A DNA stretch of 64,000 nt, from NCBI RefSeq assembly GCF_036321535.1, contig NC_087436.1, positions 83,640,001 to 83,704,000 of the forward strand. The letters run 5' to 3'. This stretch comes from Camelus dromedarius (taxonomy: Eukaryota). The notes under the pieces are model-generated. The model saw nothing but the letters and a program-made list of their open reading frames with translations, was not told where the DNA came from and did not search any database. A program made the position numbers and the translations under genes. Below, one piece after another: positions 1-64,000 of this stretch (its first letter is position 1; every line of letters starts with the position of its first letter).

Positions 1-62
1 GGAAGGGATAAAATGAGAGTTTGAGATTTGCAGATACTAACAACTATATATAAAATAAACAG
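1..62 (+). mobile_element. Older L1 3'UTR, left part (interrupted by the L1 at 63-3100)
   Basis: Similar to the L1 3'UTR at about 47350-47420; sequence resumes at about 3114. Confidence 0.8.
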
Positions 63-3000
63 GGAGAAGCAAGATGGCAGAGTAGAAGGACACTTGTAGC
101 TCACCCTCTCCCACAAAGACACCAAAACTCACATCTACGGACCCACTCAGCCAACCAGAGCACCTGCCGAACTCTGACAGAACATTGCCTTCTTCGAAAG
201 ACAAAGATGCCAAAAATCTGGTAGGAAAAAAGAAAGAAGAAAAAGCAAAACAGTGCAGGACCGATCCTGCAGGGAGGGAGCAGCAAAGGAGGACTGGTGC
301 TCGTTTGCTGGGTCTCCCCTCCCCAACGGAGAGGCCAGTGGGACAGAGGGGGGATTTCCCAGGCTCAGATCTGCCCTGAGCACCCCTTGACTGATAGAAC
401 TGAGTTAAATGGGCACAAAGGGTCCCCATGACACCCAGCCCGAGACGCGAGCCGATAGCTGGCGCCGGGGCAGGCGGCCCGAGCAGGGCAGAGGACTGGG
501 GCAGCTGCCCTCAGGCAGCCCCAGGGGACTTCAGGGGGCTGCGTGCCGTGGCTGGGAGGGGATACAGAGCAGAACCACCTCAGTTCCCCATAAATTGCGA
601 AAAAAGCAAAGCAACATGGCTGGTGTGCCCCAGGGGGAGGGGCGCAATAGCATTTGTCTCCTGAGACCTGCACCACCATTACTGGCACTTCTCGCGAAAA
701 GAGAGGCGGGGCGCAGCCACAGCCGCCATGTTCTCCTGTGTGCAGTGCCCGGGTGGGGGTGGGGCTGAGACCTGAATCCGCACCCAGGGGCTCCACAACC
801 TCCTAGGCAGGACTGAGACTTATTTACAGCTAGAGGCAGATAGGATGTTTCTGCCCTGGCACCTCAGAGAACTTCTGCCGCCAAGACAAACAAGGAGCTG
901 AGATTTGGCACAGAGCAGAGGCGGGGCCATTCCACGGTCTTCCCCAAGCCTGTCTTCAGAGCGCTGACTGGAGGCGGAGCTGGCAGCTGCACAGAGCAGC
1001 AGAGCGACCGGCGCCGGGCAAGAGCGGGCGGCAACCCACTTTCCTAGCAGGAACGCAGCACCTGACCACGGTGCTGGGAGGGGATGTGATCTGCCCACCT
1101 GCCTCCCCTGAGCACAGCATCTGACTGCGGCATCAGGAGCGGAAGTGACCCGCCCACCCACCAGATAAGAGCTCAACCCCTGACCCAGTGTTGGGAGGGG
1201 GCACAATCTGCTAGCCAACAGCCACTGGGAGCAGCACAGAAGAGGGTGCCAACAGAGGGCCTCTGGAAACAGCAAGCTGAGTTTGCAAAACAGGGCGAAG
1301 ACACAAAGACCTCGCGATAAAATCATTAAGAGTACAGCGTCTCCAGGAGAACTAGATAACTAATACTCCTTAAGCCACAGTGCCAAAGTGATATGAGCAA
1401 TATGAAAAAGCAGAAGAACCACTCCCAATTAAAAGATCAAGAGAAATCCCCTGAAAGCACGATCAAGGAAATAGACATCGATGGCCTACTAGATCAAGAT
1501 TTCAAAAAAGGAGTGATCAAAGTACTGAAGGAACTGAAAGAAATAGTGTTTAGAGATATAAAATATGTCAAAAATGAAACAGAAGTTATAAAGAACCAAG
1601 TAGAATTAGTAAACTCATTTGCTGAGATGAGAGCCAACCTAAAGGCTGTACAAAGCAGGCTAGACAATGCAGAGGAACGAGTAAGTGACCCAGAAGACAG
1701 GACAACAGAAAGCGCCCAATCAGAACAGCTGAAAGAAAAACAAATAAAAAACAATGAAAACAATATAAGGGACCTATGGGATAATATAAAGCATGCCAAT
1801 CTATGCATAATAGCGATTCCAGAAGGGGAAGAAAGAACAAAGGGAATTGAAAAGGTATTTGAAGAAATGACTGAAAACTTCCTAAACCTAAAGGAATCAG
1901 ATATCCAAGTACAGGAGGCTCAGAGGGTCCCAAACAGGAACAACCCAAACAGACCCACACCAAGACATATTATAATCAAGATGGCCAGAGTCAAGGATAA
2001 AGAAATGATCCTAAAGGCCGAAAGAGAAAATCAAAGAGTTACAAGGGAACCCCCATAAGGCTCTCAGCTGATTTCTCTACACAAACACTACAGGCCAGAA
2101 GGGAGTGGCAAGATATATTCAAAGTCCTGAATGAAAAAAAGATGCAGCCTAGGATACTCTATCCAGCAAGGCTATCCTTTAGAATAGGAGAGATAAAGAA
2201 CTTCACAGACAAGCAAAAACTAAGAGTTTAGCAACACTAAACCCATGCTAAAAGAAATACTGACAGGTCTACTCTAAATAGAAAAGAAGCAGGATGCTAC
2301 AAAAATGAGAAACTCATAACTGGAAAGGAGATAACTGCCATGAATTACAAAAAGAATAAACACAAAATTGTAAAAGACATCTAAATCATTAAGAATGGGA
2401 GAGGGAAGCAAGGAAAGCCATTGTGGAAAACAGTATGGAAATTCCTCAAAAGACTAGGAATAGACTTACCATATGACCCAGGAATCCCGCTCCTGGGCAT
2501 AAATCCAGAAGGAATCCTACTTCAAAATGACACCTGCACCCCAATGTTCATAGCAGCACTATTTACAATAGCCAAGACATGGAAACAGCTTAAATGTCCA
2601 TCAGCAGAGGACTGAGTGAAGAAGATGTGGTATATTTATATGATGGAATACTATTCAGCCATAAAAACCGACAACATAACGCCATTTGCAGCAACATGGA
2701 TGTTCCTGGAGAATGTCATTCTAAGTGCAGTAAGCCAGAAAGAGAAAGAAAAATACCATATGAGATCACTCATATGAGGAATCTAAAAACAAAACAAAAC
2801 ATAAATACAAAACAGAAACAGACTCATAGACATAGAATACAAACTTGTGGTTGCCAAGGGGGTGGGGATTGGGATGGGACAGAGTGGGATTTTAAAATGC
2901 AGAATAGATAAACAAGATTATACTGTATAGCACAGGGAAATACACACAAGATCTTGTGGTAGCCCATAGTGAAAAAAAAAATGTGACAATGAATATGTGC

Positions 3001-3100
3001 TCATATATAACTGAGAAATTGTGCTCTACACTAGAATTTGACAATGTTGTAAAGTGACTATTACTCAATAAAAAATGTTAAAATAAAAATAAATAAATAA
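63..3100 (+). mobile_element. L1 with GC-rich 5'UTR, ORF1, inter-ORF spacer, then only the 3' tip of ORF2, 3'UTR and A-rich tail
   Basis: 5' end ggagaagcaagatggc (YY1-type core). ORF1 homology from 1393. Jump at about 2417 into ORF2 end (WKTVWKFLKRL..DLPYDP). 13-bp TSD ataaaataaacag at 50-62 and 3101-3113. Confidence 0.93.
1393..2277 (+). pseudogene. L1 ORF1p remnant; open for 221 aa, frameshifted near 2040 and in the C-terminal domain
   Basis: Motifs LWDNIKHANL.II.IPEGEE and RPTPRHIIIKM; after the shift YKGTPIRLSADFS..LQARREW; stop at 2275-2277. Confidence 0.92.
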
Positions 3101-3113
3101 ATAAAATAAACAG

Positions 3114-3280
3114 CAAATTTATACTATATAGCACAGGTGACGATATTCAATATCTTGTGGTAATCTATAATGAAAATGAATATGAAAAGAAATATATGTG
3201 TGTATATGTATGACTGAAACATTATGCTGTACACCAGAAATTGACACAACATTGTAAACTGACTATATTCAATTAAAAAA
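3114..3280 (+). mobile_element. Older L1 3'UTR, right part, with A tail
   Basis: tatagcacagg...tgctgtacaccagaaattgacac...caattaaaaaaa; same family as 47420-47570 and 60430-60615. Confidence 0.85.
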
Positions 3281-5049
3281 GTTAATCAATGTTTTTGATA
3301 AATTGGAAAATTTTACATGACTTGTTTAGATATTTTAAAATATCCAGATGTTTGACATCGAGTTACCAATCATATGGGTGGATAAATAAGTTTTCAAAAT
3401 TTATACTGGATAACTAGACATGTTTCAAACTATTTTAGATACATAGTTTCAAACAAAATAGTGAAAAAGTAGTAACTGATTGTTAATCTTTAAGGATAGT
3501 TATCTTTAAACTTCCAATGATAAAACTCAGATAAAAGTTGATATACTTAAGATTAGGAAATTATTATTGTCATTTTCAAGAGCTCTCAAAAAATTTCCGT
3601 GTCATATTACAACAAAATATCTCCTCAAGTATCTTAGAGAAAAGCTGTCCATAGTGTACAGGCAAGAAGAATACTGAGGTAAAGGTAAAGGGGTAAATGG
3701 GATTTTTCCAAACCACAACCAGAATTGAAAGATTTAAGGGTCGCTGTCTCAAAGATATATACTGTCTGTCTGAGAAGGTCACAGCGAGAAAGGATCTAAC
3801 AGATCTTGGGTGAAGAAGAGGGCCCCAATTTAAAATCGGAGATAAATTTTCCAGGACTCCCATTCTTATACAAGGGTGTGGCTGGTGTCAAAGCAGCAGA
3901 TTAACAGTGATGGGTTAAGAACTCTATTCAGCTCTTGCTAAACTGTAAGATCCAGAAGCAGTCAGAGTGTATCTACGGCATTTCAGACAACCTGCATTAC
4001 ACAGAACAGCTACAGCATGACAAGAAAAGACACACAGAGAGGGGTGGGGCTCACATACAGAGGTTCATCTGCTGGTGCAGGCCGGCAGGAGCCCCCGGCT
4101 CAGAGCTGGAGCAACCGTGCTCCCATGCAGCTTCTGCCTTTACACTTGTCACCCAGGCACTGAACCTCTCTGGAAACCTCATTTTCAAAATCTGAGTTTT
4201 GTCCTGAACAGTATTCTTGGATCTCTCCCATTTCTGTAATTTTAGTTTTCTGAAGAAATACACTGATGAGGTGTGGTGAGTGTAGATTCTTGATGACTTT
4301 AAGGTGACTGAATACAAGGGAGGTGACTGCATGTACAATGAGTTCTACCAACATTAACATAGGGATTTTCTAGAAACTCAACTTTAGGACAACTTCTCAT
4401 TTTAAATATCTAATGTTTCATTTAAAGGATTAATTTCAAGGCCTTACCTAGAGAAACTTCTCAGTCATTGTTAGAAGGGAATATCACCCTCAGTTCTGAG
4501 CTTGGTGATAAATTTTATACCCACCAAAAGTGATTAGGATCAGATTATTACCAGTTTGAATGCCTCAAGTCACTTTTTCCCCACCATTTTCTCCCCTGCA
4601 CTTCAGGGTCTGGTGACGTAACAACAGATTTGCAACCTCAGAGCTTCTACTCCTGATGCACGTTGTTTCCTGGAAAGTCTTCCCTCTCCTTCATCACTTG
4701 GTAAAATCTATTTATCTTCCGAGGTTCGACTAAGTTGTGCCCCATCCCAACCTCCAACATATTAACTGCTTCTTCCTTATTCTCACAGAGTGCATTTAAT
4801 CTCGTATGATAGTATTTCTAAGTGTCTGTTTTGTGTCATAATTTACTGTGAAGGTATTTCTTTCCGTATCACTCTAAATATCTTAAGGGCAAGGAGTCTA
4901 TCTAAATTATCTCAAATCTCCAACAGAGCCTATTCCTACATATACTAAGAACCAAAAATGTACATACTCTTAGAAGCAGAAATTATCTTTATAGTTCCTT
5001 TTAAATTTAATTAAAAATTTACTTTCCACTTTCAGTTATAAGAGGAATA

Positions 5050-5300
5050 CATTCCGGGGATGTGTTGTACAGCATGGTGATTATAGTTCAAAATACTGTA
5101 TTATATACTTGAAAGTCACTAAGAAAGCAGATCTTAAATTTTTTTCACCACAAAAATGAAATGGTAATTATGTGACATGATGGAGGTGTTAACTAACGCT
5201 ATGGTGGTGATCATTTTACAACACATCAAATCAACACATTGTATACCTCAAGTTTACAAATTCTATATGCCAACTATATCCCAATAAAGCTGGGAAAAAA
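5050..5300 (+). mobile_element. L1MA-type 3' end fragment
   Basis: gtacagcatggtgattatagtt...tatacttgaaag...caactatatcccaataaagctggg. Confidence 0.75.
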
Positions 5301-6007
5301 TAAGGTTAATGATACAAAAAAGAAGTGAATTTCCTCTTTGTACATCAATGTATCATATGCTTGTAGTGTATAGTATAAAATATAAAGAATATACCCAATG
5401 TTCTTATGTCAGAATCAGAATAGCATTTATGACACATTTCATCTCCAAAAGGAAGAAATACTCCCCAAATCAGCAAGTTATAGGCAAAACTAGTCATCTT
5501 TGATCTAAATAATGCTTGAGATGGAACAATGGAATGCTTCCAAACAGGTTAAAGAAACACTGACAAGGCCTTCAGGGTAATAAATACCAAGAAACACAAG
5601 GTCTTTACCAAGAGCTCATTCTGTACTGTTACCAAAAGTAAAAGGAAAACATGAATCCTTCATTGCTGTAGTATCAATCCATTTTCAGGTCCTAGGAGGA
5701 GTGCCTAACAGAGGTTATCAAAACTAGAAAGCATCTCAGTCTGAAAATCTGAAAGAAACTGTTTTGACACCATGCCCAGCTTCATCGTATCTGGCAGCGG
5801 TCTAGCCATAAAGTGGCATGAGTCTCATGAATCTTAGTTAAAACATGGTGAAGGTGTAAAGGAAAAGATAATCATACTCGTGCTTTATTTCATGCTGTGA
5901 ATAGATACCTGTGTTTAATTCTAAATCTCAGCCCATGGAATACTTCAGAAAAGTTTCTTCATTCAAGTAGCAAACTTGACTAACTCAGATTTCAGCTCCT
6001 CACTTCT

Positions 6008-6442
6008 CTTTTTTTTTATTGTGGTAAACACACATAACCTAAGATTTACTATCTTAACCATTTTTAAGTGTGGAGGTTCAGTGTAAGTATATGCACATTA
6101 TTGTCAAACAGGTCTCCAAAACGTTTTCACCATGCAAAACTCTACAGCCACTAAACATCAACTCCCCTTTTTTGTTCCCTCCAGCCCCTGGCAACCAACA
6201 TTCTACTTTCTATCTCTATGAACAGAAATTTGACTATTTGAAATGCCTCATATAAGGGTAATGTCTTTTTGTGGGCTTGTTTCACTTAGTATAATGACCT
6301 TCAGCTTCACCCATGTTGTCAAAATTGACATAACAGCCTTCTTTTCTAAGGCTGAATAACCCTTGTATGGATATGCCATATTTTATTTATCCATTCATCC
6401 ATCAATGGATATCTGGGTGGTTTCCACCTCTTGGCTACTGTG
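6008..6442 (-). mobile_element. L1MA/MB-type 3' end fragment
   Basis: T-tract start, then ccagcccctggcaacca, ccattcatccatcaatgga, ttccacctcttggcta. Confidence 0.75.
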
Positions 6443-7759
6443 CCTTGCCTCTTTTTATACAGAAGTGTTAAACAGCAACTAAGCATTTAAAGGGCAGGAC
6501 AAGAAAGAATAAGAACAACACACAGATTCTGAAGTCCGCCTTTAACCAAATAAAATGAGACAAAATGCTCGGACATGACACATTTAGCGAGGCTGTCTAC
6601 TTCTTTAAAAAATTAAAGAAAAAAGTTAGACTTCTTGAGTTTAGTTGGTCTAGCTACAGCTAAGCCAACGTGGATCTTGAGAGAATCCAAAGTAAGGCAA
6701 CTTAATTTGTACAACACACAAAACCTTATGAGGTACCATGTATTTCTGTATTCTTCAGCCAAAGGGCATTTTATAAATTTTTAGAAAAGCTAAACACTTT
6801 ATCAGTAGCAAAAATGAAAACTGATTCAGTATAATGAACTCCCTTTACCTGTTTCTTTAGGGCAGACCATAGGCGCACTGGAAAATGCTGTTGTCTGAGA
6901 AGCATTAAAGCATTTTTCTAAGCACTGAACTATCAGCTATTCACCCATAAATCCAACCATTCATCCATCCACCAACCAAAGTATCAGCTAGGCATGTCAC
7001 TGACACTTCTAAGATGGATAAATCAGATTCCTGCCCTAAAGAAGTTTACAAGTGGGGTCAAGGGGAGGAGTCAGGAAAAAGGAAATGTCAATAGGCTTAA
7101 CAACTATGCAAAAGATGACAGGGTTGCAAAACAGAAGTACGTTCAAAGTCCTATGACAACTCCAAGAATAATAGTTGTTATTTGTTCTTCCAACCACTAC
7201 CATTTTCTTCTTCTCTGGCTCTTACTTTCTTGATTCTAACATGAGGATATCACTGCCAGTCAAAATTAAAGAAACTCCAAAGTGCGTCTTTCAATACCCC
7301 CTCAGAGACCAGTAACTTTCACAAAGATTTTCTTATGATTGGATGCTGCTTACCCTTTCTATTCCCTGTCAGTTTGGGTGGTAGCAGAGCACCAGGTAAA
7401 AGATCTCCCAATTTCCAAGTAAGTTCAGAATGCAAATATAATCAATCAGAATACAGGCAGTACCCAAGTAGTAAACAACTGTGCCCTAAAAATTTGTGTT
7501 TTAAGTCAGTCACCTAGAATACAGAACATATTCTCTCATAAGGAAAAAAATGTAAGCAAGATGTTTAGGTTCTTATGCCACTCCCTTAAGATCAATTTAA
7601 ATCAATTAAAATCAATCAAGTAAAGATTTACTTTACTCACGACAAAAATATGACTAGAAGAGTGACACAACAGTAGCACTGTGTGTTAAAACTGTGTGTT
7701 AAAATATATTTTTGTGAACTTGTTCAGGAACCTGAATAAAGTAACAAAAAGAATAAGTA

Positions 7760-8165
7760 ATAGTAGTACTAGAGAAAGAACATTTACTGAACCCTTACTA
7801 TGTGTTGGACACTATGCAAAACACTTTGAATTCACTGATTTAACCCTCACAACAATCCTAGAAGGAGGGTATTGCGAGAACCTCTTTTAGACATAAAGGA
7901 ACACTATGCAAAATGAAAAAAGGTTAGTGGCTGCCTGGAGACTGGGTTAACTGTAAAGTGGGCATGGGAGCTGTAACCGGGAAGAGTTAAAAGAAAATGT
8001 TCCAAAACTGATTTGGTGGCAGCTATACCACTCAGCAAAGTTACTAAGAATCATTCAATTGTACACTGAAATCGAATTTTGTGACATAAAAATATACCTC
8101 AATAAAGCTGTTTAAAAAAAAAGATGAAGAAACACAGGTTTAAAGTTTAAGTAACTTACCTAAGG
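7760..8165. mobile_element. MIR fragment interrupted by an L1M 3' end (about 7905-8120)
   Basis: catttactga...cctcacaacaatcct (MIR); aggttagtggctgcc...tatacctcaataaagctgtt (L1M); gtaacttacctaaggt (MIR resumes). Confidence 0.6.
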
Positions 8166-8168
8166 TAA

Positions 8169-8629
8169 GTATATTAGTTTCCTGTTGCTACTAACAAATT
8201 ATCACAAACTTAGTGGTTTAAAACAACACAAATTCACTATCTTCCAGTTCTGGAGGCCATAAGTCCAAAATGGGTCTCACTGGGCTAAAATCAAGTTGTT
8301 GCCAGGGCTGCATTCCTTACAGGGTGGAAGCAGTTTCCTCTCCTGTCTAGCTTTCAGAGGCCACCCGCATCCCTCAGTTGATGGCTCTTGCACTCCTTTG
8401 ACCTCGCCTTCCGTCAGGACATCTCCTTCTCTGACCGTCAACCTCCCTCTTCTAAGGGCCTCTGTGGCAGAACTGGGCCCACTCGGACAACCCAGGCAAG
8501 TCTTCGCATTTTAAGGTCTTTTTCTTAATCACCTCTGCAAAGTCTCTTTCCCCATATGAAGTGACATATTCACAGGTTCCAGGATTAGCATATGGACATC
8601 TTTGGGGGCCAGTTCTTTTGCCCACTGCA
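8169..8629 (-). mobile_element. MaLR solo LTR (MLT1-like)
   Basis: tattagtttcct..gct..taacaaattatcacaaacttagtggtttaaaacaacac...cacaggttccaggattag. Confidence 0.85.
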
Positions 8630-9183
8630 GTCACTCCTCTAGGCAGGTTTAAAACCAAATCCCAGCCCTGGCAGTCTGAGTACCTTCTTGCTTGAGCATC
8701 ACGTTTTTACCCCTACTGTGTACAGGTGAAGCGGCCAGGCCCACAGCAAGAAGGCCCTGGGACAGCTCTGAAAACGTCTTCTCAAAATACACTGGACACT
8801 CAGAAAGAAAGGATTTTGGGGTTTTAGAAACACATCTCACTCCCCAGAGTTCCAGGGGCAGCCAGTTCAAATTCAAAGTGATTGGCAATTCACGTGCATG
8901 GAAATACACTAAGACAAGAGCAATCTCCCATCTCTCTGCAATACATAAATGAAAATGCTGTAGGAAATCCTGCAGGAAAATAAGCTGTCAGTTATTGCCT
9001 CCCTGCCTCTCTCTTGTTCGCTTGTTTACATTTTTTTTAAATAAACAATGCAATCTTCAACATCCCAAGGCCTATTTGATTTTTCAGTGAAAAAGACAGT
9101 TTAATAATTTTTATCCTAATTCTGAAAAGTGTAACTGAAGAGATTAAAAAAAAAAAAGATGATTATGTTCAACTATGAAACAA

Positions 9184-9465: not shown

Positions 9466-9655
9466 TATTTTTATTTATTTACTTATTTAATAAATATCTT
9501 TTTTATTTTATTTATTATTGTATTATTTAATTATTTAATTTTGGTGGGGGAGGGGAGGTAATTAGGTTTATTTATTTTTAGAGGTACTGGGGATTGAACC
9601 CAGGACCTCATGTATACTAAGCATGCACTCTACCACTTAAGCTATACCCTCCCCA
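9466..9655 (-). mobile_element. tRNA-derived SINE (camelid vic-1-like)
   Basis: Reverse strand reads ggggagggtatagcttaagtggtagag...gggttcaatcccc (A/B boxes) with an AT-rich tail. TSD cccaataccctttt at 9452-9465 and 9658-9671. Confidence 0.88.
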
Positions 9656-12169: not shown

Positions 12170-12310
12170 TTTTAAAATTTTATTTATTTATTTTGGAGGG
12201 GACATAATTTTTATTTAATTTATTAATTTTTAAATGGAGTTTCTGGGGATTGAACCCAGGACCTTGTGCATGCTAAGTACACACTGTACCACTGAGCTGT
12301 ACCCTCCACA
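12170..12310 (-). mobile_element. tRNA-derived SINE (vic-1-like)
   Basis: A/B boxes agctcagtgg / ggttcaatccc on the - strand; imperfect TSD tat(a/g)tttaatctt. Confidence 0.85.
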
Positions 12311-12613
12311 ATATGTTTAATCTTAAACAAATATGCCTCTACTGAATAAGTAATGTTGACAGGTGAATGTATTCTTTCTACCTCCATAGGATGATAGCAA
12401 ATTTCCATAGAAAAGTAAGACGACCAGAGTTTCTTTTCAAAAGTTTTTATAAAAACATAATTATATTTCATAGGTCCTTGTTTATATGTTCGAGGGACCA
12501 GACAGCCTCGTTAGTTGGTGCTAAAACTTATAAATAATATGTCAGGCTACCAGTATCATTTGAAACACGCCGTCCTGGCATTAATGAGCTTGCAGGCATC
12601 CACATTTACTTAC

Positions 12614-36985: not shown

Positions 36986-37133
36986 GGGGGAGGGAATAGC
37001 TCAGTGGTAGAGCACATGCTTGGCATTCACGAGGTCCTGGGTTCAATCCCCAGAACCTCCATCAAAAAATTAATAAGTAAACCTAATTAACATCCTCCCA
37101 CACCAAAAAAATTTAAAAAAAAGGAAATAAAAA
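36986..37133 (+). mobile_element. tRNA-derived SINE (vic-1-like)
   Basis: gggggagggaatagctcagtggtagagc...ctgggttcaatcccca, then aaacctaatta and an A-rich tail. Confidence 0.88.
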
Positions 37134-44140: not shown

Positions 44141-45891
44141 TTTAAACAAAGGAAAATACATCAAAGGCAAGATGATGAATTTTACTGTGGGTAATAAAAT
44201 TACTTAAGAACAAGCACTTAAATCCTGATGAATGGTATATAAAATTCGCTTGTTGTCATCTGTTTACAGCTACAATATTGTCCAAACATAAGGATGCTCA
44301 CTCAGGATGCTATGTAAGAACACTGATAAGTCTACAAAGACGACTATGAAGTTCACATCTTCAACCTTGATACCCCTCTCCTAAGCACTGATGGTCATTT
44401 TATTCATTTAAAATGAGCTCCTCATCTTGGCCCCACAATCTTCCCCTCTTGACTTCCATGATTTTTATTAATGGATCCATAATCAAGATGCCACATCAGG
44501 GTCTCTCTTCTTTCTTCAGTAAATAGTTAGATCTCTGAGATAGACAATTAATAAAGCCCCCACAAGGAGATCATCAGATCCTACCAAGCTAAGAGCATCT
44601 GAGCATTTGGGCTAAGTCCCAAATTCACCTGGAGGTAAAGAAGGAGCATTAGTCAGTCACAGAAGGTTCCTAGAAAGTTGAAGATTGTGCTTCTTCATTT
44701 CAGGACAAAAGATCAAGTATGACAGGCTGAAGTGTTTTATAAAATATCAAGACCCACCCTAGGTACAGACAGAAGAGATCTGAATTACTGAAGACAAAAG
44801 AACATTAGTTGCATCAAGCCTTGACAAAGCACAGGAGTTGGCAGGGAGCTCTCCCTGGTGCTACTTCAACCTTGCCTAAAGTTATTACCTTTAAAAATGA
44901 AGATTCATTTAAAATCACTTCATAATACAATCAATGTGATATACCACATTAACAAACTGAATAAAAATTGTATGATCAACACAGTAGATGCAGAAAAAGC
45001 TTCTGATGAAATTCAAACATCCATTTATGATAAAACTCTCCACAAAGTCGTCCCAGGAGAAACGAATCTCAGCATAACAAAGACTATACAGGATAAGCCC
45101 AACTAACATCACACTCAGCAGGGAAAGCTGAAAGCATCTCCTCCGAGATCAGGAACAAGATAAGGATGCCCACTTTCACGACTTTCACTCAATGTAGTAT
45201 TAGAAGTCCTAGCCACAGCAACCAGTCCATCAGTCAAGAAAAAGAAATAAAAGGAATCCAAACTGGAAAGGAGGAAGTAAAGCTGTCACTATGTGCAGAT
45301 GACTTGATGCTATACATAGAAAATCCTAAAGACATCACCAAAAATTTTACAAGAGCTCATCAATGGATCTCGTAAAGTTGCAGAATACAAAATTAATATA
45401 CAGAAATCTGTTATATTTTATATCCTCCAATTGATTAAAGATCTAAATGTAAAACTCCTAGAATAAAACATAGGCAAAACACTGACATAAACTGCAGGTT
45501 ATTTTTTGAATGTCTCTTAAGGCAAAAGAAACAAAAGCAAAAATAAACAAATGAGACCTAATTAAACTTAAAAGCTTTTTGCACATTAAAGAAAACCACT
45601 GACAAAATGAAATGACAGCCTACTAAATGGGAGAAAATACTTGCAAATAACTGATAAGGGCTTAATATCCCAAATATATAAACAGCTCATATAACTCAGA
45701 GTCAAACAAATGAACAAACTGATTAAAAAATGGGCAAAAGATCTGAGAAGACATTTTTCCAAAGAAGACATATGGATGGCCTACAGACATCACTCAACAT
45801 TACTAATCATTAGAGAAATGCAAATGAAAACCACAATCAGATACTGCCTAACACCTGTCAGAATGGCTATTTGTCAAAAAGAACACAAATA

Positions 45892-45948
45892 GGGACATTG
45901 TGCTGTACACCAGAGACTGACACGTTATAACTGACTGTACGTCAATGA
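45892..45948 (+). mobile_element. 57-bp, extremely 5'-truncated L1 3' tip
   Basis: gggacattgtgctgtacaccaga...actgactgtac; 16-bp TSD aaaaagaacacaaata at 45876-45891 and 45949-45964. Confidence 0.85.
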
Positions 45949-45968
45949 AAAAAGAACACAAATAACAA

Positions 45969-47598
45969 TAATCCTAAAATTTGTATAGAATCACAAAAGA
46001 CCATGCAATTCTGAAGAAAAAGAATGAAGCTGGAGGAATAATGTTCCCAGACTTCAGACAATACTACCTAGATACAGTAATCAAAACAGCATGGTACTGG
46101 CATAAAAATAGGCATACGGATCAATGGAACAGAATAGAGAGCCCAGAAATAAACAGATCTATGGTCAATTAATCTTTGCCAAAGGAGGAAAGAATATACT
46201 AATGGAGAAAAAATAGTCCCTTTAGCAACTGGTGTTGGGAAAACTGGACAACCACATGTAAGTCAATGAAGTTAGAACACTCCCTTCACATCATATCCCA
46301 AAATAAACTCAAAATGGCTTAAAGACTTAAATATAAGACAAGACATGATAAACTTCTTAGACGAAAACATAGGCAAAACATTCTCTGACATAAATCCTAG
46401 CAATGTTCTCCTAGGGCAGTCTACCCAGGCAATAGAAATAAGAGCAAAAATAAACAAACGGGACTTAATTCAACTTATAAGCTTTTTGTACAGCAAAGGA
46501 AATCATAAGCAAAACAAAATGACAATCTAAAGAATGGGAGAAAATATTTGCAACTGATGCAACTGACAAAGGTTTAATTTCCAGGATATGTAAACAGCTC
46601 GTACAACTTAATTAAAAAAAAAAAAAACCCAATCCAAAAATGTGCAGAAGACCTAAACAAGCAATTCTCCAATGAAGACATGCAAATGGCCAACAGGCAC
46701 ATGAAAAATGTTCAATATTGCTAATTATCAGAGAAATGCAAATCAAAACTATGATGAGGTATTATCTCACACCAGTCAAAACGGCCATCATTAAAAACTC
46801 CACAAATGATAAGTGCTGGAGAGGCTGTGGAGAAAAGGGAACCCTCCTACACTGCTGGTGGGAATGCAGTTTGGTGCAGCCATTATGGAAAACAGTATGG
46901 AGATTCTTCAAAAAACTAAAGATAGACTTACCATATGATCCAGCAATCCCACTCCTTGGCATATATACGGAGGGAACTCTAATTCAAAAAGATACATGCA
47001 CCCCAATGTTCACAGCAGCACTATATATGATAGCCAAGATATGGAAGCAACTTAAAAGTCCATTGACAAATGAATGGATTAAAGAAGTTGTGGTATATTT
47101 ATACAATGGAATACTACTCAGCCATTAAAAAGAATAAAATAATGCCATTCACAGCAACATGATGGACCTGGAGATCATCATCCTAAGTGAAGTAAGCCAG
47201 AAAGAGAATGAAAACTATCATATGGTATCATTCATATGTGGAATCTTAAAAAAAGAAAAAAAAGGAGACACTAATGAACTCATCTACAAAATAAACAGAC
47301 TCACAGACACAGTAAACAATCTTATGCTTATGGAGGGGATAGGGATAGGAAGGGATAAATTTGGGAGTTTGAGATTTATAAGTGGTAGCCACTATATATA
47401 AAAATGGATTAAAAAAACAAATTTCTTCTGTATAGCACAGGGAACTATATTCAGTATCTTGCAATAACCTTTAATGAAAAAGAATATGAAAACAAGTATG
47501 TACATATATGCATGACTGGAACATTGTGCTGTACACCAGAAATTGACACATTGTAACTGACTATTCTTCAATAATAACAACAACAACAAAAAAAAACC
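45969..47598 (+). mobile_element. 5'-truncated younger L1 (ORF2 C-terminal third, 3'UTR, A/CAA tail)
   Basis: [42 protein letters not shown] core cacaaataacaa at 45957-45968 and 47599-47610. Confidence 0.9.
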
Positions 47599-47892
47599 CA
47601 CAAATAACAAATGTTGGTGAAGATGTGGAGAAAAGGAAACCCTTCTACAATGTTGATGGGAATGCAAATTGATGCAGCCACTATGGAAAACAGTATGAAA
47701 GTTTCTCAAAAAATTAAAACTTAGAACTACCATATGATCTAGCAATTCCACTCTTGGATATATATCTGAAGAAGATGAAAACATTAATTCAAAAAGATAC
47801 ATACACTCCAATGTTCACAGTGGCATTATTTACAATTGCCAAGACATGGAAGTAACCTAAGTGTCCACCAAAAGATGAATGGATAAAGAAGA

Positions 47893-47893
47893 T

Positions 47894-47966
<73 letters not shown>

Positions 47967-47988
47967 AGAGAGAGAGAGAGAGAAAGAG
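47893..47988. repeat. Compound (TG)n(AG)n microsatellite inside an L1 3' region
   Basis: Read directly. Confidence 0.95.
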
Positions 47989-48884
47989 ATGGAATATTAC
48001 TCAGCCACAAAAAAGAATGAAAATTTGCCATTTGCAACAGTGTGGACAGACCTGGAGGGTATTATGCTTAATGAAATATGTCAGAGGATGTGTCTTGTCG
48101 CCTATATGTGGAATCTAAAAAAAAAAATAAAACAAATGAGTATCTACAATAAAAAAAAAACAGACTCAGATTTAGAGAACATACTAGTGGTTATCAGTGA
48201 GGATAAGGGAGAGAAGGGGTAAGAGAGGTAAGGGTAGGGGGTTAAGAAGTACAAACTATTATGTATAAAATAAATAAACTACAAGGATATATTGTACAGC
48301 ACAGAGAACACAGCCAATATTTTGATACCTTTAAATGGCATATACTACATAAACATTCTGAATCACTATGGTTTACACCTGAAACTAATATAATGTTGCA
48401 ATCAACTATACCTCAATGGAAAAAAGATGTTTAAGGACCTTTAAAAATCAGCTTTTAACTTTAATTATGTAAAACGAGTACTATTTTAGGACTCAGTCTT
48501 GCTTATAAGAAAAGGAAAGCACACCAGTGACTTTTCAGTCTCAAAGGTCACTAACCAAACACAATTCAGTTAATTAATATTTCCTACATAGAATGTAATG
48601 CCTTATTGTTAGTACTTCTATGGTAGCCAGAAAAGATTTTCTCTGGCCCAAAAGCATCAGGGCTTTTCAATATTAGTTATGTACACATTCATATACCAAC
48701 AGTCTAAGAAATTACATTTAATAATGGTATTTCATAATAGTTTAGTATTATTTTAGGGTAGAAGATGAGGACCTGGAGTAAAACAGCAAGATGGTGGTTA
48801 TGCAGAAACCGCAAATATTTCAAAGCTTGGTTTTAGTTGAGGAGTAAAACTGCTTTGATTCCTGGCAGGAGCCACTGCACTCAC

Positions 48885-55015: not shown

Positions 55016-55943
55016 GATCATTAGGCACATGAAAAAATGTTCAATATCACTAATTATCAGAGAAATGCAAATCAAAACTACAATGAGGTATCACCTCACA
55101 CCAGTCAGAATGGCCATCATTCAAAAGTCCACAAATGACAAATGCTGGAGAGGCTGTGGAGAAAAGGGAACCCTCCTACACTGCTGCTGGGAATGCAGTT
55201 TGGTGCAGCCACTGTGGAAAACAGTATGGAGAGTCCTCAAAAGACTAGGAATAGATTTACCATATGACCCAGTCATCCTGCTCCTGGGCATATATCCAGA
55301 AGAAACCCTACTTCAAAAAGACACCTGCACCCCAATGTTCATAGCAGCACTATTTACAATAGTCAAGACATAGAAAGAGCCTAAATGCCCAACAACAGAT
55401 GGCTGGATAAAGAAGATGTGGTATATTTATACAATGGAATACTATTCAGCCATAAAAATGACAACATAACGCCATTTGCAGCAACATGGATGTCCCTGGA
55501 GAATGTCATTCTAAGTGAAGTAAGCCAGAAAGAGAAAGAAAAATACTATATGAGATCGTTCATATGTGGAATTAAAAAAAAAAAAAAGAACATAAATACA
55601 AAATAGAAACAGACTCATAGACATAGAATACAAACTTGTAGTTGCCAAGGGGGCTGGAGGTGGGAAGGGACAGGCTGGGATTTCAAAATTTGTAGATACT
55701 GACAGGCATATGCAGATTAGATAAACAAGATTATACTGTATAGCACAGGGAAATATATACAAGATCTTGTGGTAGCTCACAGCAAAAAAGAATGTGACAA
55801 TGAATATATGTATATTCATGTATAACTGAAAAATTGTGCTCTACACTAGAAATTAACACAACATTGTAAACTGACTATAACTCAATAAAAAAAAATGTTA
55901 AAAAAAATGGGCAGAAGAAAAAAACAAACAAAAAAAACCCCAA
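55016..55943 (+). mobile_element. 5'-truncated young L1 (ORF2 C-terminus and 3'UTR), about 260 bp into the intron from the exon at 56203
   Basis: [17 protein letters not shown]. 19-bp TSD aaaa(t/c)taggaatcattcca at 54997-55015 and 55944-55962, at a TT/AAAA site. Confidence 0.93.
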
Positions 55944-56202
55944 AAAACTAGGAATCATTCCAAACTAGAAACCTCAGTAATTAAAGTGATAGCTCCATGA
56001 CAAATTCATTTAATATTGTCAAAATAATGGTAAGCCGCCATAATGCTCTTAATGTCTTTTTATAAGGGCAAAATACATTACACCATAATTTGATGTTCTA
56101 ATTAAGGTGTTTTAGGGTATATGCTAGTAACATGTTATGACGTTATTCACACAAAAACCTTCTTCTGTAAAAACAATGGAATTAAAATACGACCGGACTC
56201 AC

Positions 56203-56392
56203 CGTGCTTGGTCAAGTACTCGACTATGCTCCCCACTATAGCTGGGATGCCATTCTCAGTGAGGCCCTGCTGATGAAGGTCTTGGAGACTGACGCCAAAT
56301 AACTTTTTGTAGGTGGAACTCTTCTGCTCGTTTTGTGGCACCGCTGCTATCTTTTTCATGTCTTCCTTCAGCCGAACTGCAGCTTTACTTTG
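56203..56392 (-). CDS. FAM13A: FAM13A coding exon (equivalent to human exon 2), start of RhoGAP domain: QSKAAVRLKEDMKK...LFGVSLQDL...GIPAIVGSIVEYLTKH
   Basis: Translation matches the FAM13A N-terminal region as recalled. Acceptor ttttaag|CAA (AG 56394-56393), donor CACG|gtgagt (56202-56197). 190 nt, phase 0 to 1. Confidence 0.96.
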
Positions 56393-58087
56393 CTTAAAAC
56401 AGCGTAAGCAGAAAGAGCAGTCAGTCATATTAACCACAGGAGGTTGCATGGTTACAACAGAATCACCTGAATTAAAGTATAAGCATTTGGAGACAGAGAG
56501 CAGTGGTCTTGACTTATTTTTACTTCAACTCAAATCAAAATCCCTCATCTCTCTCTCAGGTTGCTCAGTGCTGAGAATGGCACACGCTGATATACTGGTT
56601 AAAAGGAGTGAAAAATAATGAGAAACCTAAAGCCACACTTAACCACACTTAAGCGTAGCTAAGAGAGGGAGCAATACACTGCAGTATCTTAGATATATTA
56701 CTACAGTAACTGGGGGTGTGACTCACAACCTGGTTAACAGGAAAATAAAACATTTATAAGCACATTGAAACCCCATGCAGATCCTGAAAGAGTAAGATGT
56801 TACCCAACATAAAAAGTTATCTAGATGCCATTTTAAGGTAGCTTTAATTTGAAGGGTTAGAAAAAATATATATATGTAGGGTGAACATTTATTTCTGACT
56901 TGATTATATCTGAATATCTCAATAAGATTTTGGCACATAAAATCAACTTAATTCTCATTGTAGTTCAAAATGTTATCTGTGAAATAGCAATGTTTCAGGT
57001 AATCACAATTTTTAAAACTTCAACATATAATAAATAAAAAAATACAATTTACATTCAACTAATTCAAGTTATCACCACAGTGAAACCTCTATACAAATCT
57101 GTTTCTTCCGTTTAATAGAAAAATTTTCCCCAAGGAAGTATTTTAAAAGATAAATTTTAATATGGTTCAATATAACTAAATAGGGATTTCTTTTTTAAAA
57201 AAGTGTATGTCCTATATAAAAGTGTATATCTTTAAATACTAAAAAGATGGCAAAATGTGAACAACTTTATTTGGGGAGAGAGGAAGCAGACTGGGGGAAA
57301 TGTTCACTAATTAAAAAGTGTCAATATTATAAGTGCAGGCTCATGCAGCTGTTAAACAATCTAAAAGCAGGATCATTACCTTCATTGTATAGCTGAGGAA
57401 ACAAAGATCAAAGAGTTAAGAAGTAATCTGGTAAAAGTCATGGAACTGGTCAGAAGACAGTCTCATCTGACCCTAAGTCTGTATTTCTCTCCTTAATTTA
57501 GATTAAAGTGCAGTTTGTGTATAATTATAGTAACAAACTATGATAAATATTGTATGTGACACATGACAATTACACAAAGATAATTCTATAATCTTGATTT
57601 TTAGTAAGGTCCCCATAATTTCAATTTGACCTTGAATTTTATAATCTACATAATCAGACCAACTTTTATAGACATATTTGCAGATTTTAATAGGTCATAT
57701 TTGAAAGCCATATTTCCCTAGTGAGGATTCAGCAATGTAAAGTTAAAACATAGATTTAGTAACCCATTAATACTACTAATAAGGCACAGTGTTAGCTACT
57801 ACAGAGCAGTAGGGGCTAGAACTATCATCTCTGTCACCAAGGAAGTCAAGTCAAACTTGTAACAACTACTATTTTTGTGTGTGAGTTTAAAAATCTATCC
57901 ATCTCCTTCAAATGAACGAACATATGGGAAGTTTCAGTCAACCAGGTCTGTGGTGAGTAAGCAGCCAAAAAGCAACCTGTAATAATGAAACTGAAAATGG
58001 TCTCAAGTGTGGCATTAAAGCCAGCTGACAGTATGAGGTTAAATTATACAAATTGTATCTTTTATTTCACCTTCTTACAGACACAAT

Positions 58088-62270: not shown

Positions 62271-64000
62271 TGGATTCTGCAGCAGCAGAGTTTGTGGCTG
62301 GGCACTTATGGAGGAGAGGCTGACACCTAAGCCAATTGTTGGTGCTCCCACAGCAGGTGTAGCTTTGACGAGCTTTGAGGGCATGCACTTTGGGAGTACA
62401 CACGAGCCAGAGGTGGAACTGAGGCCGAGCAGTTTATTGGTGCTCCCACAGCAGAGGCGGGTCGGGTAACAGCTACAGCAGCAGTGATTTTCATGAGCCC
62501 CGCACACCAAGTGGTGTGTGGCATCACGGTCTCATGACCTGCTAACAGCTCCTAGGAAGAACACACAGCAACCCTTTTTCCAGAGAAGTCTTCCAGTCCT
62601 GCCCACCTCACGTTGCTGCTTAGAACCACATGATGACACCTACTACAACAACTGGAGGGCAGACGCTGCCCCCAACAGGACTGTGACAACCACATAGCAA
62701 AGAGAAGGCCCCATTCAACATCCAGCACAGGCTCTGGTCACCATTACACCAAACACACCCTATCAAGAGAACAACAGCCAGCACACTGAGGGAATATGTG
62801 GCAGGCATCCATAACAAAAACAGCCCTCACACCAAAAATATTGGACTCACACAGTGCACAGGGATGCTCCCACATAAAACCAGCCCTTCAAGACCAAAGT
62901 AGGTAATTGTTTCTCCTAAATTCATAGAGCCAGAGAAATATAGGAAAAATGAAAAAGCAGAGGAATTACTCCCAGTTAAAAGAATGAGAGAAATCCCCTG
63001 AAAGAACAATGAAACAGATCTCTCTGGTCTCCCAGGCCCCAACTTCAAAAAGGAGGTAATAAAAATGCTAAAGGAATTAAGAAAGATGATCTATAGAAAT
63101 GCAGATCACTGTAATAAGGAACTAGAAACTATAAAGAGAAACCAATTAATGCACAAGATGAAAAAGTGATCTGGAAGATGGAGTAATGGAAATAACCCAC
63201 TCAGAACAGCAGAGAAAATGACAAATGAAAAAAATGGAAAGAAAGCAACACATGAGACCTATGAGATAACATGCATAGATTGTCATGCTTTATAGGGATT
63301 CCAGAAGGAGAAGGGAAAAGAAGATCAAAAATGTATTTGAAGAAATTATGGCTGAAAACTTTCCAAACCTAAAGAAGGAAACAGATAACCAGGTACAGGA
63401 AGCACAAAGGGCCCAAACAAGATGAACCCAAACAGACCTATACCAAGGCGTATCATAATTAAAGTGGCAAAAGTTAAAGATAAAGAGAGGATTTTAAAGG
63501 CAGCAAGAGAAAAAGTCATTTACAAGGGAACCCCCATAAGGCTATCAGCTTGTATCTCTGCAGAATCTTTGCAGGACAGAAGGGAATGGCCATGATATAT
63601 TCAAATTCCTGAAAGGAAAAAACCTGCAACCTAGAATAATTTACCCAGCAAGATTATCATTTAGAATAGAAGGAGAGGTAAAGAATTTCTCACATGAGCA
63701 AAAACTAAAAGAATTAAGTAATACTAAATTTACCCTAAGAGAATACTGGAAGATCTTCTTTACAAAGAAAAGCAGCAAGAATCTATACAAAAGGGAAAGT
63801 CATAATAGGAAATGCAAACATATAAAAGGATTGAAATCACTTAAAAAGCCAGCATGCAGATTAAAAATAAAAAATGTAAAAGCAATTATAACCACAGTAA
63901 ATAAAAAGTGTAAGCATGAAGATGTAAAATAAGACATTAAAATGACAAAATGTGGAAGGAGGGGAGTATAAAAATGTAGATCTTTTAGAATGTATTTGAA
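62271..64000 (+). mobile_element. Older L1 5' portion: 5'UTR, disrupted ORF1 (about 62949-63763) and inter-ORF spacer, running off the window
   Basis: Collinear with 1393-2417 (aaaagcagaggaattactcccagttaaaaga; tacaagggaacccccataaggctatcagct); many frameshifts. Confidence 0.88.

What the first reader, a model, noticed from the sequence alone, without database searches (positions are those of the whole stretch)
63..3113. ORF1-only L1 whose ORF2 loss looks like a splice: possible non-autonomous half-L1 family
Seen: the element has its 5' end, ORF1, tail and a perfect 13-bp TSD, but at 2417/2418 the inter-ORF spacer (...gggaagcaaggaaag) joins directly to the last part of ORF2 (ccattgtggaaaacag). 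In the related copies at 55201 and 46871 that point is preceded by tttggtgcag, a YAG acceptor. The 5' side ends in AAG, the donor-exon consensus. In the older L1 at the window end, the roughly homologous spacer (ggggagtataaaaat, 63961-63975) is followed immediately by GT. Known: spliced L1 RNAs can retrotranspose, and ORF1-only HAL1 elements arose from L1 several times in mammals. Inference: an ORF2-excised mRNA was mobilised in trans, and may represent a lineage-specific half-L1 family.
Basis: partly seen in the sequence, partly recalled or inferred. Interest (0 to 1): 0.72.

Follow-up and report, generated by a model that had tools for sequence, protein, structure and literature searches.

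The report
Dead L1 copy missing ORF2
This is a real, decayed 3-kb LINE-1 jumping-gene copy that kept its first gene but lost almost all of its copying-enzyme gene, possibly by RNA splicing; whether it is one of many such copies could not be established, and enzyme-less "half-L1" elements are already known in mammals.

Summary
Window 63-3100 is an L1 with 5' end, 1.33-kb 5'UTR, a decayed ORF1, 140 nt of spacer joined to the last 369 nt of ORF2, 3'UTR and A-rich tail, inside an exact 13-bp duplication. About 3.7 kb is missing. It sits in an older L1 3'UTR.

Splicing is plausible but not shown. For: the join follows a CAG in ORF2-retaining copies, and the spacer ends exactly before a GT in the window's older L1. 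Against: the acceptor has a poor pyrimidine tract; 0 of 30 pig consensus spacers shown have GT at that point; all have T where the element has G, so the "donor AG" may simply be the acceptor's own letters, as in a deletion.

Family status is untested: no genome was held, read laying gave no result, and no second junction copy was found in the window or in the collections searched. The ORF2 remnant is 91% identical and colinear with an ORF2-retaining neighbour, so there was no long separate history.

Verdict: HAL1-like in build; splice origin about 55%; identical junction at other loci about 60%; self-propagating family about 35%. Known kind, modest interest.

The parts
50..62 (+). left target-site duplication (13 bp; 11 bp if the first two bases are tail-like)
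   Evidence: exact match to 3101-3113
63..1392 (+). L1 5' end and GC-rich 5'UTR
   Evidence: start resembles the first 30 nt of pig L1A1/HAL1_SSc consensuses (by eye); GC 0.57 in 1-1000; CpG o/e 0.4; no second copy in the window
1393..2277 (+). ORF1, decayed: open for 221 codons, then two frameshifts; four single-codon losses
   Evidence: Pfam Tnp_22_trimer and Transposase_22, Tnp_22_dsRBD in the shifted frame; 86/81/76% to P0001/P0002/P0003; frames; gaps
2278..2417 (+). first 140 nt of the inter-ORF spacer, ending at the junction
   Evidence: aligns to the spacer of the older window L1 and of pig-type loci
2418..2786 (+). last 123 codons of ORF2, colinear, two premature stops, no frameshift
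   Evidence: 90.8% (335/369) to 55209-55577, 82.4% to the 46.9-kb copy; branch changes
2787..3066 (+). L1 3'UTR
   Evidence: 89.2% (264/296) to the 55-kb copy
3067..3100 (+). AATAAA signal and A-rich (TAAA)n tail
   Evidence: sequence
3101..3113 (+). right target-site duplication
1..49 (+). older L1 3'UTR, left of the insertion
   Evidence: the empty site aligns as one piece to 47348-47572, 78% over 231 columns
3114..3285 (+). older L1 3'UTR, right of the insertion
55025..55944 (+). comparator: 5'-truncated L1 of the same or a close subfamily that keeps ORF2 across the acceptor point
62897..64000 (+). comparator: older L1 ORF1 (about 75% identical) and spacer, with GT at 63976-63977

Best explanation
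A dead HAL1-like insertion copied from a spliced L1 RNA. A full-length L1 of this lineage was transcribed from its 5'UTR promoter; about 3.7 kb was removed between a donor 140 nt behind the ORF1 stop and a CAG 369 nt before the end of ORF2. The RNA kept promoter, ORF1, 3'UTR and tail but could make no endonuclease or reverse transcriptase, so ORF2p from another L1 inserted it by target-primed reverse transcription at an A-rich site in an older L1 3'UTR. It then decayed. Shown: anatomy, duplication, tail, empty site, acceptor CAG, decay. Inferred: the donor GT in the parent, mobilisation in trans, and any further copies (same junction elsewhere about 60%; self-propagating family about 35%).
For: Exact 13-bp duplication, tail and rebuilt empty site. 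CAG precedes the join point in 3 of 3 window copies that span it; YAG occurs at about 3% of positions in these L1 strands. The spacer end falls directly before GT in the older window L1 in 6 of 6 alignment settings, and the score summed over three outgroup spacers peaks at that offset in 6 of 6; GT occurs at 2-4% of positions. Pig rows 1 and 3 confirm the register (last base before a [C]TAG word that matches the older L1's GTAG, by eye). A GTAAG word 10 nt further upstream in 7 of 30 pig rows reads GC in the element, which would push splicing to the next GT (by eye). Spliced L1 RNAs do retrotranspose (PMC5860796, passages), and L1 splicing is prominent in testis (PMC2896524, passages).
Against: The parent L1 was not seen. 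The last homologous spacer base is T in 30 of 30 pig rows shown and in the 4 outgroup spacers at their best ungapped 33-nt register, so splicing needs a T-to-G change in the parent, whereas a deletion needs none because the ORF2 side supplies G or AG. GT follows the point in 0 of 30 pig rows; the GT of young pig L1 (16 of 30 rows) lies 2 nt earlier and is absent from rows 1-14. L007 has no GT there and its alignment is not above shuffles (35 of 100). The acceptor tract is poor: 6 of 16 pyrimidines, matched or beaten by 33 of 39 YAGs in the 46-kb ORF2. 7 of the 8 fetched loci that span the point have AA, not AG. Another old L1 in this window also lacks about 0.7 kb internally. No second junction copy was found.
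Confidence: 0.5

Rival explanations
1. Internal deletion without splicing, made during reverse transcription (template jump at a 1-2 nt overlap) or in a source copy, and then inserted here as a 3-kb unit. The splice-like letters are chance. This copy could still be a member of a HAL1-type family founded by that deletion.
For: No substitution is needed: the spacer side can end in its A-run and the ORF2 side supply G or AG. Weak acceptor tract. Internal deletions at insertion are a named fate of L1s (PMC4982230, passage). Pig HAL1_SSc did not keep the ORF2 end, by eye, so HAL1 founders arise by other routes.
Against: Needs two coincidences: a break inside a YAG (about 6% over two placements) and a spacer end exactly before the older L1's GT (about 4%).
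Confidence: 0.32
2. A full-length L1 inserted here and later lost 3.7 kb by DNA deletion; unique to this locus.
For: The remnant is 91% identical and colinear with an ORF2-retaining neighbour, and its branch changes look neutral (1 synonymous, 11 non-synonymous, 2 stops). A nearby old L1 has an internal gap of about 0.7 kb. No second copy found.
Against: Same two coincidences as above. Near-full-length L1s number about 1,700-2,300 in three camelid draft genomes (PMC5203782 supplement, passage without its header), so a unique clean 3.7-kb loss would be rarer per window than a member of a family of some hundreds (inference).
Confidence: 0.15
3. Assembly error that collapsed a full-length L1.
For: The junction was not checked against reads (laid nothing).
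Against: The join has only a 2-nt overlap, too short to mislead an assembler (inference), and both sides carry the same degree of decay. 14 DNA or unlabelled contig runs from 6 studies hold 0.82-0.85 of the words of 1-9000, which shows the locus, not the junction.
Confidence: 0.03

Closest known systems
HAL1 (half-L1) non-autonomous L1 derivatives (definition read in PMC5753468, passage; Bao and Jurka 2010 seen only in reference lists, not read)
   Same: L1 5'UTR and ORF1, no usable ORF2, L1-type 3' end and tail; needs ORF2p from another element. HAL1s arose several times in mammals; guinea pig, marmoset and bat families are listed.
   Different: HAL1 names a multi-copy family; only one copy is shown here. 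ORF1 is dead in this copy.
Pig HAL1_SSc (L1A6 in the supplement of PMC6501411)
   Same: About 3.0 kb, 5'UTR plus ORF1 of about 900 nt, L1 3' end, in a related order-level lineage.
   Different: Different 5'UTR; by eye its ORF1 is followed by an AT-rich stretch and it does not keep the ORF2 end. Not the same family or junction.
SpIREs of human L1 (PMC5860796, passages)
   Same: L1 insertion with normal TPRT marks and a clean internal loss at splice-like letters.
   Different: SpIREs splice within the 5'UTR or into ORF1, lose promoter activity and are called dead ends. This element keeps promoter and ORF1 and loses ORF2, so a fresh copy could be transcribed again.
Pig L1B-L1D autonomous L1s (ORF1 55-57% identical; loci L001-L003)
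   Same: Homologous ORF1 and long spacer type.
   Different: They keep a spacer of about 510 nt and ORF2.

Membership tests
HAL1 | L1-derived ORF1 present | tested here: met
   three L1 ORF1 Pfam domains; frame broken in this copy
HAL1 | ORF2 absent | tested here: met
   about 3,450 nt of ORF2 missing, last 369 nt kept
HAL1 | inserted by L1 machinery (duplication, A-rich tail) | tested here: met
HAL1 | many copies with the same structure at independent sites | tested here: inconclusive
   none in the window or viral contigs; no close ORF1 relatives in three collections; no genome; no reads laid. These collections do not appear to hold this lineage's DNA, so the blanks say little
HAL1 | ORF1 kept by selection in the non-autonomous lineage | not testable with these tools
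   needs many junction-bearing copies; ORF1 tree leaves the element's group unresolved
SpIRE | lost segment bounded by GT and AG in the parent element | tested here: inconclusive
   AG shown in 3 of 3 window copies; GT only by homology in one older L1, not in pig rows
SpIRE | splice within the 5'UTR or 5'UTR-to-ORF1 with promoter loss | tested here: not met
   junction lies behind ORF1; an internal 5'UTR loss cannot be excluded without the parent
SpIRE | same junction recurs across copies | not testable with these tools
autonomous L1 | ORF2 with endonuclease and reverse transcriptase | tested here: not met

The most novel reading that the evidence does not exclude
A camelid half-L1 family born by one splice from the inter-ORF spacer to the ORF2 end. 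Unlike human SpIREs it kept promoter and ORF1, so it could go on copying itself with borrowed ORF2p. It would be a direct case of splicing founding a HAL1 lineage, and would link two classes now described separately.
Probability: 0.22. Interest if true: 0.6.

Novelty: new member of a known kind. Interest (0 to 1): 0.33.

Why it matters
Spliced L1 insertions in human are described as dead ends because the splice removes promoter sequence (PMC5860796). A splice that removes only ORF2 would leave a transcribable, ORF1-coding parasite of L1, and would give a simple, repeatable route for the several independent origins of HAL1. If the junction is unique or a plain deletion, this is an ordinary broken L1.

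Tried and rejected
No genome is held. Read laying returned nothing, so junction copy number, the parent's donor and expression stay open. Junction pattern in viral contigs: 0 matches. Close-ORF1 alignment: 0 relatives among 317, 235 and 230 candidate stretches in metagenome, viral and genome contigs. Only L001, L002 and L007 have a homologous spacer (L039 gave a 26-nt marginal hit and was dropped). I first read the pig GT as a conserved donor; the supplement rows show it is 2 nt earlier and confined to rows 15-30, so I dropped that support. Simple local and ungapped alignments of the spacer end to single outgroups are mostly not above shuffles. Earlier findings by sequence: none; by words: none. 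Papers: searches showed no camelid HAL1 or ORF2-excising L1 splice; the camelid TE survey PMC8605555 has 0 mentions of HAL1, ORF1 or ORF2 (section 15 read) and its supplements could not be read. Belancio 2006 is not held. Repbase and Dfam could not be searched, so an existing entry is not excluded.

Full report
Observation. The element runs from 63 to 3100 on the + strand, between exact 13-bp repeats at 50-62 and 3101-3113. With the element removed, the flanks align as one older L1 3'UTR to 47348-47572 (78% over 231 columns), so the repeat is a true target-site duplication. The cut site reads 5'-TTTT/AT on the bottom strand, close to the L1 endonuclease preference (recalled). The start resembles pig L1 consensus 5' ends (by eye). 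ORF1 (1393-2277) carries three L1 ORF1 Pfam domains but two frameshifts. After 140 nt of spacer the sequence joins the last 369 nt of ORF2. The missing piece is about 3,450 nt of ORF2 (6 loci, 3,434-3,450) plus about 290 nt of spacer if the pig length applies. A 3'UTR, AATAAA at 3067 and a (TAAA)n tail follow.

Lineage and age. The closest ORF1 proteins are unnamed (86, 81, 76%); the closest named ones are pig L1 at up to 55-57% over the whole query. Two earlier scan notes call this genome camelid; I did not confirm that. The ORF2 remnant is 90.8% and the 3'UTR 89.2% identical to the 5'-truncated copy at 55 kb, which keeps ORF2 across the join point. With the 46.9-kb copy as outgroup, the element's branch has 1 synonymous, 11 non-synonymous and 2 stop changes, the 55-kb branch 5, 10 and 1. 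This is neutral-looking decay of about 4%, with no frameshift in the remnant, so the element is dead and has not had a long history apart from ORF2-bearing L1s. At a recalled mammalian rate of 2-2.5 per billion sites per year that is roughly 15-25 million years. 13 contig runs of organism A and 1 of organism B hold 0.82-0.85 of the words of 1-9000. The element is 34% of that stretch and only 3-5% of 31-letter words survive at 9-11% divergence, so this insertion is probably present in those samples. That says nothing about the junction.

Acceptor. All 3 window copies that span the point have CAG directly before it; of 8 fetched loci, 1 has CAG and 7 have AA. YAG occurs at about 3% of positions. 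The tract is weak: 6 pyrimidines in positions -5 to -20, equalled or beaten by 33 of 39 YAGs in the 46-kb ORF2 and 17 of 18 in the 55-kb copy.

Donor. The parent L1 was not available, so I used outgroups. Gapped alignment places the element's spacer end directly before GT in the older window L1 in 6 of 6 settings (3 of 100 shuffles as high); in pig-type L001 the best end is 2 or 5 nt later (2 of 100); in L007 it is 1 or 9 nt earlier (35 of 100, and no GT). The summed score peaks at the GT offset in 6 of 6. The pig consensus set corrects part of this (PMC6501411 supplement 1, 30 of 33 places shown, read by eye). Row 13 matches the last 33 spacer bases at 25 of 33 without gaps, which fixes the register. 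In that register the last base is T in 30 of 30 rows, GT follows in 0 of 30 (CT in 3, AA in 27), and the GT of rows 15-30 lies under the element's last two bases. A GTAAG word 10 nt upstream in 7 of 30 pig rows reads GC in the element.

Weighing. A random deletion would break inside a YAG about 6% of the time and end just before the outgroup GT about 4% of the time. Splicing must pay for a T-to-G change and a weak tract. My rough likelihood ratio is 4-20 for splicing; with a prior near 20-25% this gives about 55%. These are estimates, not computed results. If the RNA was spliced it could not make ORF2p, so insertion was in trans (inference; trans-mobilisation of SINEs and mRNAs by L1 proteins is stated in PMC5860796). 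An old L1 at 44.9-45.9 kb lacks about 0.7 kb internally, so plain internal losses do occur here.

Family or single event. Not settled. There is no second copy in the window. No genome was held, read laying gave nothing, and the public contig collections held no close ORF1 relative. None of 58 more distant loci has the junction. The ORF1 tree groups the element loosely with P0001, P0129 and P0018, apart from the intact P0002, but that fork is drawn open (82/86) and carries no DNA context. An encounter argument leans to several copies: near-full-length L1s number about 2,000 per camelid draft genome (table passage without header), so a unique clean 3.7-kb loss should be met less often than a member of a family of hundreds. 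I put the same junction elsewhere at 60% and a self-propagating family at 35%.

Known kinds. In build it is a HAL1: ORF1 without ORF2, a kind that arose several times in mammals (PMC5753468, passage; family names in PMC3183009 and PMC3342881, passages; brief mentions in PMC13756887, PMC4161310, PMC4859970, passages). Membership needs copy number, which is untested. Pig HAL1_SSc is 3,016 nt and, by eye, does not keep the ORF2 end, so it is a separate case. Human SpIREs splice within the 5'UTR or into ORF1 and are dead ends (PMC5860796, passages). Human spliced transcripts that keep ORF2 and drop ORF1 are described (PMC2896524, passages); this would be the reverse. Bao and Jurka 2010 and Belancio 2006 were not read, and either may describe ORF2-excising events. 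PMC13558583 and PMC4982230 (passages) gave background only. Eight searches showed no camelid HAL1; PMC8605555 does not mention one, but its supplements, file 1 of PMC5203782's supplements, Repbase and Dfam were not seen. Earlier scan notes report HAL1-type and spliced mini-L1 families in other genomes (unchecked).

Verdict. Real feature, correctly described. A dead ORF1-only L1 insertion, more likely than not from a spliced RNA, with family status open. New member of a known kind; interest 0.33. The boldest reading, a splice-born self-propagating camelid HAL1, has about 22% probability and would deserve 0.6.

Noticed in passing
window 56150-56449 (- strand): Coding exon with RhoGAP-like features (Atlas score 0.92; no Pfam hit at 0.01). 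It looks like the start of FAM13A (recalled). The L1 would then lie antisense within that gene (inferred).
   Followed up: partly
window 9523-9654 (-), 12220-12315 (-), 36987-37120 (+): Three related tRNA-headed repeats, 78-82% alike, two called as tRNAs by ARAGORN; probably tRNA-derived SINE copies.
   Followed up: partly
window 44924-48200: Nested L1 mosaic: an old ORF2 piece with an internal gap of about 0.7 kb, interrupted by a younger 5'-truncated L1 (about 45967-47575) and resuming at about 47608.
   Followed up: partly
window 1393-2277: ORF1 has six small deletions (four of one codon, two frameshifting), by eye mostly loss of one unit of a short tandem repeat; many for about 4% substitution decay.
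   Followed up: no
PMC6501411 supplement 1, rows 15-30; loci L001, L002: Young pig L1 spacers gained a GT (often AG/GTAAAT) that older pig subfamilies lack; a possible new splice donor in active pig L1.
   Followed up: no
L011 and L019: Both hold an L1 ORF2 3' piece on the strand opposite to their ORF1 match; separate insertions or inversions.
   Followed up: no
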